64,000 nt of DNA. Source: an uncultured Clostridia bacterium (GTDB lineage Bacteria > Bacillota > Clostridia > TANB77 > CAG-508). The notes beneath the pieces are model-generated. The model searched no databases. It saw nothing but the letters and a program-made list of their open reading frames with translations, and was not told where the DNA came from. Position numbers and translations under genes: made by a program. Below, one piece after another: positions 30,703 through 62,000 of this stretch. Within the stretch, counting starts at the first letter, position 1, and every line of letters starts with the position of its first letter. The DNA lies in NCBI GenBank assembly GCA_934129745.1, contig CAKOWZ010000011.1:1087-65086 (forward strand). The letters run 5' to 3'.

Positions 30703-31581
30703 ATGTATACTCAAATATTAACATCAAAAAACGGCGGGGAATTAATAAGTTTCAAGTTAAATGGAAAAGAAAGAATACATCAAGGTGTAGATTGTGTAGA
30801 TGAAAATGGTAAAGTTTATTGGAAAAGACATTCACCAGTACTGTTCCCAATTGTAGGAAAATTAAAAAGAAATCAAACAATAATAAATGCACGAACATAT
30901 GAAATGTTTCAACATGGATTTGCTAGAGATCAAGAATTTGAGCCAATAACAAAATTAAATAATTTTCATTCTTATGTGTTAAAAAGTAATAGAAATACAT
31001 TAACTAGATATCCTTTTGATTTTGAGTTATATACAACATATAGGCTTGATGAAAATAGATTAACAACAATATATAAAGTAATAAACACAGGAAAAGCAAA
31101 TATGCCATTTTGTATAGGAGGACATCCTGCATTTAAAATAGATGCAGAAGCATTTAAAAATGGTGATTATTATCTTGAATTTGAAGAAGATGAAGATAAA
31201 ATACATTTCCTATATTTAGTAGATGGATTAATTGGAACAGATTATGCACAAAATAAAATTGTAGACAAAAGAAAAATCTTTTTAGATAAAGATTCATTTA
31301 ATAATGATGCAATAATTATGAAAGGAATGATATCATCAAAAGTAACATTAATGAGAAAATCAACTCAAAGACGTGTACTAACAATGGACTTCTCAGAATT
31401 CCCATATTTAGCATTATGGTCAAAACCAGGAGCTCCATTTTTGTGTATAGAACCATGGCATGGAATGTCAGATTCAATTAAAAGTAGCGGTATTTTTACA
31501 GAAAAAACCTCAATTATTTTGCTAAAACCTAACGAGGAATTTGATTGCAAATATACAGTTGAGTTTTATGATGAAAAATAA
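30703..31581 (+). CDS. aldose-1-epimerase (mutarotase) family protein, LacX/YihR-like
   Basis: β-sandwich family motifs FPIVGK...FQHGFARD...EPWHG. Confidence 0.55.
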   Translation: MYTQILTSKNGGELISFKLNGKERIHQGVDCVDENGKVYWKRHSPVLFPIVGKLKRNQTIINARTYEMFQHGFARDQEFEPITKLNNFHSYVLKSNRNTLTRYPFDFELYTTYRLDENRLTTIYKVINTGKANMPFCIGGHPAFKIDAEAFKNGDYYLEFEEDEDKIHFLYLVDGLIGTDYAQNKIVDKRKIFLDKDSFNNDAIIMKGMISSKVTLMRKSTQRRVLTMDFSEFPYLALWSKPGAPFLCIEPWHGMSDSIKSSGIFTEKTSIILLKPNEEFDCKYTVEFYDEK

Positions 31582-31633
31582 TGTACAATTGGGGACGCGT
31601 CCCAATTGCACACATTGTGCAATCAGAGACATA
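31581..31633 (-). repeat. GC-rich nested-palindrome repeat element, copy A (inverted orientation)
   Basis: The reverse complement reads CTATGTCTCTGATTGCACAATGTGTGCAATTGGGACGCGTCCCCAATTGTACAT, matching the copies at 32451 and 61939. Confidence 0.7.
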
Positions 31634-31737
31634 GTATATGCTGCTTATAAATAGAAAATACTAATCAGAATATCATATGAGATAATATATGATATTTGAA
31701 TTGTATTAATAAAAATAGATTAAAGGATGTTTGAAAT

Positions 31738-31920
31738 ATGGATAAAGTTTTGTGTTTAATTGGTTTAATTATAATTGCAATAGGAATGGTTTGTATTTAT
31801 GATGCTAGAAAAATAACAAAAAAATTTTTTAGTTCAAGTGATAGAAATAATGCAACTAAAACTGCCAAGATTGTTGGATTTGTTGTATGTGTGATTGGAA
31901 GTGCTTTTATTTTAATTTAG
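31738..31920 (+). CDS. small 2-TM membrane protein
   Basis: 60 aa with two hydrophobic helices and an upstream RBS. Confidence 0.4.
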   Translation: MDKVLCLIGLIIIAIGMVCIYDARKITKKFFSSSDRNNATKTAKIVGFVVCVIGSAFILI

Positions 31921-32029
31921 ATTACATTTTAAATTAGATTATATTTTAATTTAGGTTAAGTATTGCATTTACAAGAAATTTATGTTAATATATTAAATAT
32001 AGTTAAAAACAAAGAAAAAGAGGAGTAAA

Positions 32030-32367
32030 TTTAATAAATTATTTAGAGAATAGAAGTGATACGCTGAAAGCTTCTTATAATAAATTAAATTGAAGGTAGC
32101 TTTGGAGTTGATAATTTGAAAAATATAATCTGAAAGAAATTAGATTGAATTTAATATTATTAAATTATACAATGCTAATAAAAATCAAAAATTAAAAACA
32201 GATTAGAAATTTAGTAGAATTATCCGTTTAAGCAACGTTAAAAGCTAATTAAGATGTTATGTATTATCACAATATACATTAAAATTAAAATATATATGTG
32301 ATTATATAATAAATTAAGGTGGTAACGTGAAGATGACTTCGCCCTTATTGTAGGGTGAAGTTTTTTG
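32030..32367 (+). promoter_or_regulatory. T-box riboswitch leader of valS, with intrinsic terminator at 32336-32367
   Basis: The T-box conserved sequence is aattaaggtggtaacgtg. It is followed by a terminator hairpin cttcgccc / gggtgaag plus TTTTTT. The 5' boundary is approximate. Confidence 0.55.
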
Positions 32368-32450
32368 ATTTTCAGATGTAAATGAAACTTTTAGATTTTA
32401 TATATAAATGAGAATTTCTAAAACATAAAAATACAATTGAAAATTAAAAT

Positions 32451-60364: not shown

Positions 60365-60693
60365 ATCAAAAACAGATATGGTAAATTTATTAGAAACGCA
60401 GACATTAGGTTTAGATATCCAAAATTCCAAATTACAAAAATATAAATATCAAAATCTAAATTATAAACATAAAATTCTAATTTCAAAAATTCAAATTAAA
60501 AAATTCAAATATAAAATATGTTAGTAAAAATCTTGGATGTAAAAAAATTTATATCCAAGATTTAAAAATCATAAAAACAACTCACATAAAAAAGTAAACA
60601 ACAATCAAAAAGAAAATTTTGTATAAATTTTTCCTAATTTGTAATACTAAAAATGTAAAAACAAAAAAATAGCAGATAAGGAGGAATTTATAA

Positions 60694-61248
60694 ATGAAAG
60701 CTACAGGTGTAGTGAGAAGAATAGATGACTTAGGAAGAGTTGTAATTCCGAAAGAAATACGTAAAACATTGCGTATAAAAGAAGGAGACCCATTAGAAAT
60801 ATTTACAGATAAAGAAGGAGAAATAATTTTGAAGAAATATTCTCCAATTGGTGAATTATCAGAATTTGCGACAGAATATGCAGAAACATTGGCAAAAACA
60901 ACAGGACATATTGCATGTATAACAGATAAAGATACAGTAATTGCAGTATCTGGAGGTTCTAAAAAAGAATATTTAGAACAAGACATTAGTCCTGAATTGG
61001 AACAAATTATTGATGACAAAGAAAATTACACAAGTAAAGATAATAATGATGTTGCAATTCCAATTACTAAAAATGAAGATAATTCTAAGAAAAACAATAG
61101 CCAAGTTGTATACCCAATAATTGCTGATGGAGATGTAATTGGTACAGTAATATTATTATCAAAAGATGCAAATACAAAAATGACAGAAGTAGAGCAAAAA
61201 GTAGTGCAATCAGCTGCAAGTTTTTTAGGAACTCAAATGGAAATGTAA
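60694..61248 (+). CDS. spoVT: stage V sporulation protein T (AbrB-type N-domain plus GAF-like C-domain)
   Basis: MKATGVVRRIDDLGRVVIPKEIRKTLRIKEGDPLEIFTDKEGEIILKKYSP is near-identical in pattern to the Bacillus SpoVT N-terminus. Length is 184 aa. Confidence 0.95.
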   Translation: MKATGVVRRIDDLGRVVIPKEIRKTLRIKEGDPLEIFTDKEGEIILKKYSPIGELSEFATEYAETLAKTTGHIACITDKDTVIAVSGGSKKEYLEQDISPELEQIIDDKENYTSKDNNDVAIPITKNEDNSKKNNSQVVYPIIADGDVIGTVILLSKDANTKMTEVEQKVVQSAASFLGTQMEM

Positions 61249-61436
61249 AAAAATAATATTTTTTAAGATAAAGTGTTATTATTAACTAAAAATAATGCTT
61301 TATCTTATTTTGATTTTTTCAATTATATTACAGAAATATTAAATTTATATTACAATTTGTAATAATTGATACAAAAATGAAAATGTATGTTATTATAGAA
61401 TTAATAATATAGTGAGAAATAAGAGAGGAGCAAAAT

Positions 61437-61922
61437 ATGGGGAAATATACGAATGAAAAGGGGTTAGTAGTTGTTCAAGACAACTTTTTAACAAAAATTA
61501 AAAAATTTTTTACAAAAGCAGTTTTTAATTTTAAGTCAAAATATAATGATTATGATGAAAATTGTGATTGCCAATTAGATGAAAGTGAAAATGAATATGA
61601 TGATAACAAAAAACAAGAATTTTCACAAAACTCATCTGTTGAAAAAGAAAGAAAATTGTTTGATTTTGATGCTGAAGACACTGGGGACTGGCCAGTTAAT
61701 GATGTTAATTGCATGAATCAGCAAAATGAAAATTGCGCTGAAGATAATATAGAATGTGAAGAAAAATCACAACAAAGTGAAAGTACAGATATAGATAAAA
61801 AAGATGAAGATGATGAACTTGATTATGAAAAAGAGGAATATAGTCAGGCTTATATTGAAAAACAAGAGATTGAGCAAAAATTGATAAATTATTATAATAG
61901 TATAAAAAATAATGTACAATAA
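61437..61922 (+). CDS. acidic hypothetical protein (D/E/N-rich, Cys-containing)
   Basis: ORF with an upstream RBS (agaggag). No motif was recognised. Confidence 0.4.
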   Translation: MGKYTNEKGLVVVQDNFLTKIKKFFTKAVFNFKSKYNDYDENCDCQLDESENEYDDNKKQEFSQNSSVEKERKLFDFDAEDTGDWPVNDVNCMNQQNENCAEDNIECEEKSQQSESTDIDKKDEDDELDYEKEEYSQAYIEKQEIEQKLINYYNSIKNNVQ

Positions 61923-61938
61923 ATAAATATAAATTAAC

Positions 61939-62000
61939 ATCTGTCCCAGATTGTTCAAATGAGCAATTGGGACGCGTCCTCAATTGCAAAAATTGTACAT
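61939..62000 (+). repeat. GC-rich nested-palindrome repeat element, copy C
   Basis: Sequence ATCTGTCCCAGATTGTTCAAATGAGCAATTGGGACGCGTCCTCAATTGCAAAAATTGTACAT. Confidence 0.7.

What the first reader, a model, noticed from the sequence alone, without database searches (positions are those of the whole stretch)
31581..62000. Family of roughly 55-bp GC-rich nested-palindrome repeats, with core CAATTGGGACGCGTCCCCAATTG
Three clear copies share the core and an outer imperfect inverted repeat GTCCCAGATTGCAC...GTGCAATTGGGAC. They lie at 31581-31633 (inverted), 32451-32503 and 61939-62000. All are intergenic, and each sits directly after a stop codon or within a leader. They are strongly GC-richer than the surroundings and contain an 18-bp perfect palindrome TTGGGGACGCGTCCCCAA. 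Partial echoes of GTCCCCAATTG appear in the sleB terminator loop at about 25580 and in the gap-pgk spacer at 63181-63300. The mixed orientation argues for a DNA-level element: a REP-, BIME- or MITE-like repeat, a protein-binding site or a structured insulator, rather than a single sRNA.
Basis: seen in the sequence. Interest (0 to 1): 0.6.

Follow-up and report, generated by a model that had tools for sequence, protein, structure and literature searches.

The report
REP-like palindromic repeats, gut Clostridia
The three GC-rich hairpin sequences are real copies of a dispersed, lineage-specific family of small palindromic repeats (like the REP/BIME elements of E. coli) that inserted next to, and sometimes into the ends of, housekeeping genes of an uncultured, very AT-rich gut Clostridia species; the kind of element is known, this family and its host are not described, and what moves it is unknown.

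Summary
Three copies lie at 31580-31634 (-), 32451-32503 (+) and 61939-61990 (+); chance expects none. The "18-bp perfect palindrome" is in fact imperfect (GGG opposite CCCC, one bulged base), and that asymmetry gives each unit an orientation.

The basic unit is a ~35-nt hairpin, AATGnnCAATTGGG-ACGCGT-CCCCAATTGnnCATT. It occurs as singlets, as three-arm "1.5 units" (all three window copies) and as inverted doublets.

- **Copy number:** at least 23 independent loci in gut metagenomes, and about one site per 21 kb of contiguous genome.
- **Distribution:** all copies are fixed among conspecific strains. None is found in 90 kb of four sister lineages, where the orthologous sites are empty.
- **Insertion:** three genes (dapA, an acyl-CoA ligase-like gene, an rsmB-like gene) have their native C-terminus replaced by element-encoded residues.
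- **Placement:** copies abut stop codons or sit 4-6 nt upstream of Shine-Dalgarno sequences, including the T-box leaders of valS and thrS. The CCCC end faces the ORF in 14 of 17 single sites.
- **What they are not:** intrinsic terminators, parts of the T-box, or members of any Rfam family.
- **Open points:** no GTAG foot and no Y1/RAYT transposase in about 470 kb sampled.

Best reading: a REP/BIME-like amplified hairpin repeat with an unknown mobiliser. Interest is moderate.

The parts
31580..31634 (-). Copy c1, a three-arm '1.5 unit' in minus orientation. The H1 hairpin (AATGTACAATTGGGGACGCGTCCCAATTGCACA) begins inside the TAA stop (31579-31581) of the aldose-epimerase gene. The degenerate distal arm is GTGCAATCAGAGAC + ATAG.
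   Evidence: 61.2 bits, E 7e-16. The orthologous site is empty in sister lineages. Present in all conspecific strains.
32451..32503 (+). Copy c2, a 1.5 unit: ATCT-GTCCCAGATTGCAC-GATGT-GTGCAATTGGGAC-GC-GTCCCCAATTG-AACA. It lies in the valS 5' UTR, 4 nt upstream of the Shine-Dalgarno AGGAGG and 18 nt (from the core) before the GTG start at 32518.
   Evidence: (57.1 bits). Absent from the valS leaders of four sister lineages. Folding.
61939..61990 (+). Copy c3, a 1.5 unit in the 3' UTR of a 161-aa ORF (stop at 61922). It lies upstream of an AT-rich terminator-like hairpin and the gap promoter region. Its compensating arm variant is GTTC/GAGC.
   Evidence: 52.3 bits. Fixed in 8 strains plus L062.
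32009..32362 (+). T-box leader of valS and its terminator hairpin (32335-32362). This is context only. The repeat lies downstream of it and is not part of it.
   Evidence: RF00230, E 4e-8 and 0.0017, below the gathering score; terminator-like site.
32518..35169 (+). valS (valine-tRNA ligase), the gene immediately downstream of c2.
30703..31581 (+). Aldose-1-epimerase-family gene whose stop codon abuts c1.
62034..62062 (+). AT-rich hairpin AAAAGAATACT-TGAAA-AGTATTCTTTT plus a T run, the likely real terminator downstream of c3. It shows that the repeat sits inside the 3' UTR.
   Evidence: Read from the sequence. The terminator scan does not flag it because the stem has fewer than 3 G-C pairs.
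25578..25591 (+). Possible relic: CTGTCCCCAATTG in the loop of the terminator hairpin after the sleB-like gene. The ~29-nt segment carrying it is absent from the sister lineage L073. It is not a family member by the unit model.
63180..63190 (-). Weak echo (GTCCCCAAATG, 1 mismatch) in the gap-pgk spacer. Not a member by the unit model.

Best explanation
The three sequences are copies of a lineage-specific family of small, GC-rich, imperfectly palindromic dispersed repeats. In anatomy, distribution and behaviour they match REP/BIME/REPIN elements. The host is an uncultured, 25.7% GC, spore-forming gut Clostridia species.

**Shown**
- The unit is a ~35-nt hairpin (H1: AATGnnCAATTGGG-ACGCGT-CCCCAATTGnnCATT, one bulged C).
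- Units occur as singlets, as inverted doublets whose CCCC ends point outward, and as a three-arm '1.5 unit'. In the 1.5 unit the middle arm can pair either with an upstream arm (H2: 13 bp, one bulged base, 5-nt loop) or with the downstream arm (H1).
- The family arose by insertion or amplification after this species split from lineages whose ValS is 84-90% identical.
- Insertions are tolerated only in intergenic DNA or in the last few codons of genes.

**Inferred**
- The units spread as single-stranded DNA hairpins that are cut and rejoined in trans by a hairpin-recognising enzyme. An HUH Y1 (RAYT/IS200-like) transposase is the obvious candidate. That gene may lie elsewhere in the genome or may have been lost, since every copy seen is now fixed.
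- Because the units are transcribed inside 5' and 3' UTRs directly next to ORFs, they probably have secondary RNA-level effects. One would be protection of the adjacent ORF against exonucleases. Another applies to the 5' UTR copies, where the freed UCCCC arm could partly occlude the Shine-Dalgarno sequence.
For: **Multi-copy family**
- The exact 20-mer was found on 18 AT-rich metagenome contigs, 12 of them from one sample.
- Further units lie on the same loci and in DNA flanking the window's own genome.
- There are 4 sites in 83 kb of contiguous sequence.
- Logan contigs L052 and L053 end exactly inside the core, as expected for a repeat that breaks assemblies.

**Architectures and hairpins**
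- Singlets, 1.5 units and inverted doublets are all seen.
- Pairing is 92-94% in H1 and H2. Compensatory changes occur in the variable outer dinucleotide (GTGC/GCAC, GAGC/GCTC, GCAC/GTGC, GTAC/GTAC). Pairing falls to 24-49% when the partner columns are slid.

**Insertion**
- Orthologous sites of c1 and c2 are empty in lineages with 90, 87 and 85% ValS identity.
- There are no units in 90 kb of four sister lineages, against about 4 expected at the host's density.
- The DapA tail RAIGDASQLHTVCN replaces the native KNKQVMKDVMKQHSLI. A remnant that resembles the native tail (my reading) comes back into frame only after removing 64 nt.
- The AMP-binding protein ends CTIGDASQLHK instead of MKKMNQ.
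- The RsmB-like protein ends RRTIGNAS.

**Neighbours and strains**
- Neighbouring genes are unrelated housekeeping genes.
- All copies are fixed among strains.

**Energetics**
- RNA folds of -16 to -24 kcal/mol, z -2.3 to -3.8.
- H2 is favoured over H1 by 4-9 kcal/mol in the 5' UTR copies, with low predicted accessibility of the Shine-Dalgarno GG.

**Literature**
- REPs are 20-40 nt palindromes, often in inverted pairs, mostly downstream of ORFs and sometimes inside genes (PMC3733652).
- Group 1 RAYTs occur in Clostridia (PMC5581495).
Against: - No Y1/RAYT or other transposase was found in the window or in about 470 kb of related DNA (about 250 kb non-redundant). Sources: tblastn and a small HMM built from recalled sequences; Pfam on 40 ORFs.
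- The canonical 5' GT[AG]G foot of RAYT-mobilised REPs (PMC6006769) is absent.
- No presence/absence polymorphism was seen among conspecific strains, so current mobility is not shown.
- Empty and filled sites could be compared only across diverged lineages. Exact ends and target duplication are therefore defined at one site only (dapA: 64 nt, 0-1 nt ambiguity).
- The genome-wide copy number is extrapolated. No complete genome could be scanned: the scan of representative genomes found only chance hits in GC-rich taxa.
- The orientation rule (14/17, one-sided binomial 0.006, my arithmetic) is not explained by simple selfish spread.
Confidence: 0.7

Rival explanations
1. The elements are primarily selected cis-acting RNA structures. 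They would act as hairpins that stabilise the flanking ORF's mRNA against 5' or 3' exonucleases. In the three-arm form they could also act as a two-state switch (H2 versus H1) whose free UCCCC arm masks the Shine-Dalgarno sequence. On this view their spread is secondary.
For: - Units sit inside UTRs directly next to ORFs. The core is 1-13 nt from stop codons in 13 of 17 stop-proximal sites, doublet sites included, and 17-23 nt from start codons in four sites.
- They lie upstream of the real terminators.
- The orientation rule holds in 14 of 17 sites.
- Two copies occupy the same position, between T-box terminator and Shine-Dalgarno sequence, in the valS and thrS leaders.
- H2 is predicted to be preferred and to leave UCCCC free to pair with GGAGG. 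P(unpaired) of the Shine-Dalgarno GG is 0.04-0.58.
- From my own knowledge: E. coli REPs stabilise upstream mRNA and, when within about 15 nt of a stop codon, reduce translation.
Against: - Sister lineages do without the elements at the same genes.
- G·T versus A·C mismatches follow the element strand, not the transcribed strand (14 versus 6; G·T is present in antisense copies).
- Copies clip and replace protein C-termini, which looks like insertion damage rather than design.
- No expression data are available.
- Proximity to ORF ends is partly forced by very short intergenic spacers.
Confidence: 0.25
2. The palindromes are double-stranded binding sites for a dimeric chromosome-organising or regulatory protein. 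Candidates would be Noc/ParB-, MatP- or LacI-type palindromic sites.
For: - The 24-bp nested palindrome has an invariant core (CAATTGGG-ACGCGT-CCCCAATTG) in dozens of copies.
- It is GC-rich in an AT-rich genome.
- Sites are spread at roughly 20-kb intervals.
Against: - The outer arms change by compensatory, hairpin-preserving substitutions rather than keeping a fixed sequence.
- The three-arm and doublet forms, the bulged base and the clipping of ORF ends are typical of hairpin repeats, not operators.
- Sites lie behind genes and between convergent genes, not at promoters.
- Close relatives lack them.
Confidence: 0.07
3. The elements are Rho-independent transcription terminators or parts of the T-box attenuator.
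For: - They are strong G+C-rich hairpins after stop codons.
- c1 read on the minus strand is flagged as terminator-like.
Against: - Only 6 of 27 units (sense) and 3 of 27 (antisense) are followed by a T-rich tail. That looks like background for a 75% AT genome, though I did not compute the background.
- Separate canonical terminators follow c3, L072, L063 and L085:7752.
- c2 lies downstream of the complete T-box terminator and outside the Rfam model.
- c2 is missing from sister valS leaders.
Confidence: 0.03

Closest known systems
REP / BIME / REPIN elements of Gammaproteobacteria (E. coli REP Y/Z units, Pseudomonas REPINs), mobilised by RAYT (TnpA_REP) HUH Y1 transposases
   Same: - 30-40 nt imperfect palindromes with a bulge that gives them orientation.
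- Many dispersed extragenic copies.
- Singlets plus inverted doublets that can fold into larger hairpins.
- Mostly downstream of ORFs, close to stop codons and between convergent genes, with occasional in-frame overlap of gene ends.
- Lineage-specific families.
   Different: - No 5' GT[AG]G foot.
- The host is a low-GC Clostridia species, whereas REP/REPIN families are mainly proteobacterial.
- No flanked RAYT gene (REPtron) was found in the DNA sampled.
- A recurrent three-arm 1.5-unit form with its own conserved left end (aGATsT-GTCCC).
- Doublet spacers of only 4-5 nt.
- Placement directly upstream of Shine-Dalgarno sequences in four genes.
CGTC-tagged REPs (Di Nocera et al. 2013, PMC3733652; includes Neisseria dRS3 and Rickettsia RPE-4/6)
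   Same: - The H2 hairpin of the 1.5 unit starts with TGTC/CGTC (the paper lists TGTC as a frequent variant).
- It has a 5-nt loop.
- The family forms inverted dimers.
- No dedicated transposase is evident.
   Different: - Here the (C/T)GTC motif is base-paired (GTCCC with GGGAC) rather than an unpaired tag.
- The stem is 13 bp rather than 8-9 bp.
- There is no CCA tail.
- The family's conserved core is the ACGCGT-centred H1 palindrome, which has no counterpart in the CGTC families.
- Those families were reported in five phyla that do not include Firmicutes.
Small structured repeats of Firmicutes (pneumococcal BOX/RUP/SPRITE, Enterococcus EFAR, Bacillus cereus bcr repeats) and MITE/PATE derivatives of IS200/IS605. 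Recalled from my own knowledge, not tested here.
   Same: Non-coding, hairpin-forming, intergenic, lineage-restricted repeats that are co-transcribed with neighbouring genes.
   Different: - Those elements are mostly 100-200 nt or modular, with terminal inverted repeats and target duplications or IS-derived ends.
- The present unit is a single 35-nt palindrome.
- No sequence similarity was found in plasmid, phage or viral collections or in Rfam.

Membership tests
Canonical REP/REPIN (RAYT-associated) | Short (20-40 nt) imperfect palindrome present in many dispersed, mostly extragenic copies | tested here: met
   - ~35-nt unit; at least 23 independent loci; 4 sites in 83 kb of contiguous sequence.
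- All sites are intergenic or clip ORF 3' ends.
Canonical REP/REPIN (RAYT-associated) | Conserved 5' GT[AG]G tetranucleotide at the foot of the hairpin (PMC6006769, PMC3733652) | tested here: not met
   The feet read AATGnnC (H1) or aGATsT-GTCCC (H2). No GTAG or GTGG is conserved at either end in the 26-unit alignment.
Canonical REP/REPIN (RAYT-associated) | Inverted doublets (REPIN/BIME organisation) | tested here: met
   Head-to-head doublets at L054/L085 (dapA), L066, L070 and L071.
Canonical REP/REPIN (RAYT-associated) | A single-copy RAYT (HUH Y1) gene flanked by the repeats (REPtron) | tested here: inconclusive
   - None was found in the window or in about 470 kb of fetched loci.
- The whole genome could not be searched, and the queries were recalled sequences.
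CGTC-tagged REPs | Unpaired terminal CGTC/TGTC tag, 8-9 bp stem beginning with A-T pairs, 4-5 nt loop, CCA tail (PMC3733652, section 6) | tested here: not met
   TGTC/CGTC is present at the H2 foot and the loop is 5 nt. However, the tag is paired, the stem is 13 bp and there is no CCA tail.
MITE | Terminal inverted repeats plus a target-site duplication of fixed length | tested here: inconclusive
   - Only the dapA site allows reconstruction. A 64-nt insertion with a 0-1 nt ambiguous A fits the remnant native-like tail, and no longer duplication fits it.
- The other empty sites are too diverged to compare.
Rho-independent terminator | G+C-rich hairpin immediately followed by a U tract | tested here: not met
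   T-rich tails follow 6 of 27 units (sense) and 3 of 27 (antisense). Separate terminators follow several copies.
T-box leader (RF00230) | Element is part of the conserved T-box architecture | tested here: not met
   - c2 lies downstream of the T-box model match and its terminator.
- It is absent from the valS leaders of sister lineages, which keep the T-box.
Any Rfam family | Match to a curated covariance model | tested here: not met
   No hit at gathering thresholds in the window. No relevant hit at E<=1 around the copies.

The most novel reading that the evidence does not exclude
The three-arm 1.5 unit is not just selfish DNA. On this reading it is a domesticated, orientation-specific UTR module of a Clostridia lineage, spread by a hairpin-processing system that is not a classical GTAG-RAYT. 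It would be placed with its CCCC end against ORF boundaries. There it would toggle between two hairpins (H2 and H1) to tune Shine-Dalgarno access and mRNA end protection, including a second control layer downstream of T-box riboswitches in aminoacyl-tRNA synthetase leaders.
Probability: 0.1. Interest if true: 0.7.

Novelty: new member of a known kind. Interest (0 to 1): 0.4.

Why it matters
- **Host range.** REP-type palindromic repeats and their RAYT partners are documented mainly in Proteobacteria and a few other phyla. The surveys I could read do not list Firmicutes families (PMC3733652, PMC12306157), although Group 1 RAYTs occur in Clostridia (PMC5581495).
- **A clean natural case.** This is an abundant family with no GTAG foot in an uncultured human-gut Clostridia species. 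It has clear empty sites in sister lineages and three cases of C-terminus replacement. It can be used to ask how such hairpins spread without an obvious transposase and what they do to neighbouring genes.
- **Practical uses.** The family explains contig breaks in assemblies of this organism. It gives a species-specific marker. It also flags mis-called gene ends: several automatic gene calls run into the repeat.
- **A testable pattern.** The orientation rule and the recurrence just upstream of Shine-Dalgarno sequences in two T-box leaders are unexplained and can be tested.

Tried and rejected
- **Representative-genome scan.** The 17-mer scan of GTDB representative genomes gave 44 hits, all single chance matches in GC-rich taxa. 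The host genome is absent or masked there, so no genome-wide census was possible.
- **Viral, plasmid and phage searches.** Nothing found.
- **Rfam.** No family matches the element. Only sub-threshold T-box matches appear next to c2 and in L059.
- **Cognate transposase.** tblastn with recalled E. coli RayT, IS608 TnpA and IS200 TnpA sequences, plus a small HMM built from them, gave only noise. A two-segment hit in L059 fell inside a 411-aa ORF that I read as a nucleotidyltransferase; I did not run it against Pfam. Pfam on 40 ORFs showed housekeeping functions only.
- **Echoes at 25581 and 63180.** Tested as family members and rejected by the unit model. The 25581 segment is nevertheless a lineage-specific ~29-nt insertion.
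- **Terminator hypothesis.** Rejected.
- **Wobble-pair asymmetry as an RNA-versus-DNA test.** G·T outnumbers A·C 14 to 6 on the element strand regardless of transcription direction. Many of these pairs are inherited within subfamilies, so the test is not decisive.
- **Organism naming.** Cluster look-up returned no names. The nearest named ValS homologues (84-87% identity) are 'MAG: Clostridia/Clostridiales bacterium'.
- **Literature search for the core sequence.** It found only the unrelated Streptomyces CebR operator.

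
Full report

Yes. The 17-mer GCAATTGGGACGCGTCC occurs exactly three times in the window (31593-31609 on the minus strand, 32476-32492 and 61963-61979 on the plus strand). None is expected in 100 dinucleotide-preserving shuffles. The repeat finder reports 31582-31631 and 32454-32503 as a 50-nt inverted pair, 92% complementary. A three-way alignment shows that similarity stops sharply at the element ends.

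The window is 25.7% G+C and the units are 41-51%. One detail of the finding is wrong. The 18-mer TTGGGGACGCGTCCCCAA is not present as a perfect palindrome: each copy differs from it at 2-3 positions, because one arm carries GGG and the other CCCC. This one-base bulge gives every unit a polarity, which proved useful later.

The 'echoes' at 25581 and 63180 exist as 11-mers. A covariance model of the unit does not recognise them.

**2. Anatomy**

I collected copies from elsewhere. The basic unit (H1) is a ~35-nt hairpin: AATGnnC-AATTGGG-A-CGCG-T-C-CCCAATT-GnnCATT. In 26 distinct units, 92.9% of pair cells are standard pairs. That falls to 26-48% if the 3' partners are slid by 1-3 columns. The variable outer dinucleotide changes in a compensatory way: GTGC/GCAC, GAGC/GCTC, GCAC/GTGC, GTAC/GTAC.

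Three architectures recur.
- **Singlets:** L058, L060, L063, L069 and L072.
- **Inverted doublets:** dapA locus L054/L085, L066, L070 and L071. The spacer is 4-5 nt and the CCCC ends point outward.
- **Three-arm '1.5 units':** all three window copies, plus L056, L059, L061, L064, L065, L068, L085:7752 and L088:14715.

In the 1.5 unit an upstream arm (aGATsT-GTCCCAGATTGCAC) pairs with the middle arm (GTGCAATTGGGAC). This forms H2: 13 bp, one bulged base and a 5-nt loop. The same middle arm can instead pair with the downstream arm (GTCCCCAATTG) to form H1. H2 is 92.2% paired with 7 double-change cells. H1 within the 1.5 units is 93.6% paired.

The 1.5 units share their own left terminus. They also fall into subfamilies, for example ...CAATTGTACA with the same G·T pair in five loci. 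This suggests they were copied as units rather than decaying independently (my inference).

As RNA the elements fold at -16 to -24 kcal/mol (z -2.3 to -3.8).

**3. Whose genome, and how many copies?**

Proteins of the window are found, identical, only on human-gut metagenome contigs (Hadza, Nepal and other cohorts) and some NCBI MAGs. The nearest named ValS homologues (84-87% identity) are labelled 'MAG: Clostridia/Clostridiales bacterium'. Sporulation genes are present (SleB-like, SpoVT).

The scan of one genome per GTDB species gave only chance hits in GC-rich taxa, so I could not census a whole genome. The available evidence on copy number is this:
- The metagenome scan with a 20-mer returned 18 AT-rich contigs, 12 of them from a single sample. 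One of those (L067) is the window's own c1/c2 locus and another (L062) is its c3 locus.
- Several contigs carry a second or third unit.
- Walking outward from the window gave no copy in the 10 kb upstream and one more copy 3.7 kb downstream, in front of gpmI. That makes 4 sites in 83 kb of contiguous sequence.
- The dapA locus of the same species holds two sites in 20 kb.
- Two short-read contigs end exactly inside the core (L052 and L053), the usual sign of a repeat that breaks assemblies.

In all I count at least 23 independent loci. About 100 copies per 2-Mb genome is an extrapolation, not a measurement.

**4. Insertion, not ancient conserved structure**

All conspecific strains carry c1, c2 and c3 and the dapA-locus copies. 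Four sister lineages, whose ValS is 90, 87, 85 and 84% identical, showed no unit in 90 kb. About 4 would be expected at the host's density (Poisson P about 0.01, my arithmetic).

In the three syntenic sister lineages both orthologous sites are empty. The epimerase-to-small-ORF spacer is 28-63 nt instead of 156 nt. The valS leaders run from the T-box terminator to the Shine-Dalgarno sequence without the element.

Three genes show what an insertion does.
- **DapA** ends ...RLPLIEMSD-RAIGDASQLHTVCN in this species. Homologues of 72-75% identity end ...RLPLIEMSEKNKQVMKDVMKQHSLI. A stretch downstream of the doublet that resembles the native tail (IFNFFKKILENTHEI...; my reading, not tested) comes back into frame only if 64 nt are removed. 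This leaves at most a 1-nt ambiguous A, so no appreciable target duplication.
- **The AMP-binding (acyl-CoA ligase-like) protein** ends ...RFEEIK-CTIGDASQLHK. Homologues end ...RFEEMKKMNQ.
- **An RsmB-like protein** ends ...RRTIGNAS.

All three read the element in the same frame. That could be chance (1 in 9).

**5. Where the copies sit**

Neighbouring genes are unrelated housekeeping genes: epimerase, valS, gap, gpmI, dapA, cysS, prfA, recQ, lgt, pta, spoVG, rnhB, thrS, dgkA and others. No gene is conserved next to the repeats, and none is a transposase.

Among 17 stop-proximal sites, doublet sites included, the 23-nt core lies 1-13 nt from a stop codon in 13. In some it overlaps the stop. 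In several sites a separate, ordinary terminator follows the element: c3, L072, L063 and L085:7752. The units are therefore inside 3' UTRs and are not the terminators. T-rich tails follow only 6 of 27 units in sense and 3 of 27 in antisense.

Four copies sit 17-23 nt upstream of a start codon, which is 4-6 nt upstream of the Shine-Dalgarno sequence where one is recognisable: valS (c2), thrS (L059), rnhB (L068) and gpmI (L088). Two of these are in the same place in T-box leaders, between the T-box terminator and the Shine-Dalgarno sequence.

Orientation is not random. In 10 of 13 single stop-proximal sites the unit is antisense to the gene. In 4 of 4 start-proximal sites it is sense. So the CCCC end faces the nearest ORF boundary in 14 of 17 sites (one-sided binomial 0.006, my arithmetic). 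Doublets have CCCC ends facing outward on both sides. Within the window, where almost all genes are on the plus strand, the copies are -, + and +. The rule therefore follows the local gene boundary rather than the replication direction. I have no tested explanation for this.

**6. How it most likely works**

*Shown:* the family is a lineage-specific, amplified, insertion-derived hairpin repeat with REP/BIME-like architecture.

*Inferred:* it spreads as single-stranded hairpin DNA processed in trans by a structure-specific enzyme. The precedent is the RAYT/TnpA_REP and IS200/IS605 Y1 HUH transposases, which recognise imperfect hairpins with bulges and leave no target duplication (PMC6006769). 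Group 1 RAYTs are reported in Clostridia (PMC5581495).

Points against simple membership:
- The GT[AG]G foot is absent.
- No Y1 gene was seen in the window or in about 470 kb of fetched DNA.
- All copies seen are fixed, so the family may be extinct.

Di Nocera's CGTC-tagged REPs, which also lack a dedicated transposase, resemble H2 loosely (TGTC/CGTC foot, 5-nt loop, inverted dimers). They differ in stem length, in having an unpaired tag and in their CCA tail.

Secondary RNA effects are plausible because the units are transcribed next to ORFs. In the three 5' UTR copies that I folded (valS, thrS, rnhB), H2 is predicted to be 4-9 kcal/mol better than H1. That frees the UCCCC arm, which pairs with GGAGG in the valS leader. 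P(unpaired) of the Shine-Dalgarno GG is 0.04-0.05 in valS, 0.47-0.58 in thrS and 0.31-0.35 in rnhB. This is a prediction only.

G·T mismatches outnumber A·C 14 to 6 on the element strand irrespective of the transcribed strand. That leans toward a DNA-strand or ancestry explanation, but it is confounded by subfamily inheritance.

**7. Rivals**

- **Selected RNA module.** Possible as an exaptation. The absence from sister lineages and the damage to C-termini argue that it is not the primary nature of the element.
- **Duplex protein-binding site** (Noc/ParB/MatP/LacI-like). Disfavoured by the compensatory arm changes, the multi-arm forms and the positions behind genes.
- **Terminator or T-box part.** Rejected.
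- **Assembly artefact.** Excluded by identical sites in many independent assemblies.

**8. Novelty and verdict**

The kind (small dispersed palindromic REP-like repeats) is well known. This family has no match in Rfam, plasmids, phages or viral contigs, and none in the literature I could search. REP surveys that I read do not list Firmicutes families.

I file it as a new member of a known kind. Three features deserve follow-up: the three-arm unit, the orientation rule, and the recurrent placement just upstream of Shine-Dalgarno sequences in T-box leaders. Interest is 0.4.

Noticed in passing
window 35207-35416: About 14 head-to-tail copies of a 14-nt unit (AAATATTAAAGTAT) in the spacer downstream of valS. 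This is an AT-rich, iteron-like tandem array of unknown role.
   Followed up: no
window 61905-61935; L077, L080, L081, L083 upstream of c3: A strain-variable tandem repeat of a 14-nt unit (ATAATGTACAATAA / ATAATATACAATGA) lies between the 161-aa ORF and c3. There are 1-2 copies in the window and roughly 6-13 in other strains. The unit resembles the outer arm of the repeat (AATGTACAATTG). An inverted copy (ATTGTACATT, 61993-62002) flanks c3 on the other side, as if c3 sat inside the split arms of an older unit.
   Followed up: partly
L076:5386-5527 (pgk-tpi spacer, about 1.5 kb beyond the window end): A 35-nt tandem repeat (AATAATGCAAAGAAAGCAAGAAATTGCAATAAGGA) is present in 2, 3 or 4 copies in different strains.
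   Followed up: partly
window 63154-63337 (gap-pgk spacer): The spacer is full of short repeated motifs (gagcaatttg..., catttgaaa...). It also has a long-range imperfect inverted repeat, CATTTGGGGACGG ... CCGCCCTCAAATA, whose arms resemble the repeat's arms. It may be a decayed unit with a large central insertion, or an unrelated inter-cistronic structure.
   Followed up: no
window 25559-25602: The terminator hairpin after the sleB-like gene (GAAATGAAACAA...TTGTTTCATTTC-TTTT) carries CTGTCCCCAATTG in its loop. Compared with sister lineage L073, a ~29-nt segment containing the left stem arm and this loop is an insertion. One conspecific strain (L045) has two substitutions in it.
   Followed up: partly
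window 32108-32285: The valS T-box leader matches the Rfam model in two pieces separated by about 180 nt of AT-rich sequence. That sequence is absent from the sister lineages' leaders. This explains why the T-box falls below the gathering score.
   Followed up: partly
L059:655-1000 (minus strand): About 340 nt of AT-rich, internally repetitive sequence (gatttaaatcaa / aaatttaaaccaa motifs) lies between the thrS T-box and the repeat copy in front of thrS.
   Followed up: no
L085:7790-7845: The distal arm of the 1.5 unit (ATCTGTCCCTG) and an inverted copy of it form a 13-bp hairpin followed by TTTTAT. This is an apparent terminator built partly from repeat sequence.
   Followed up: no
window 39027-40923: Two adjacent Zeta_toxin-domain genes lie downstream of pyrG. 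One of them is split into two ORFs in some strains (L047, L048 and L050 versus L045 and L046).
   Followed up: no
L075:12659-12715: The sister lineage has a 24-bp-stem hairpin (TTTTTGGGACACCTCC...GGAGGTGTCCCAAAAA) between the convergent genes valS and spoVAC. It is flanked by T and A runs, so it is probably a bidirectional terminator. Its GGGAC/GTCCC motif recalls the repeat, but it does not match the unit model.
   Followed up: no
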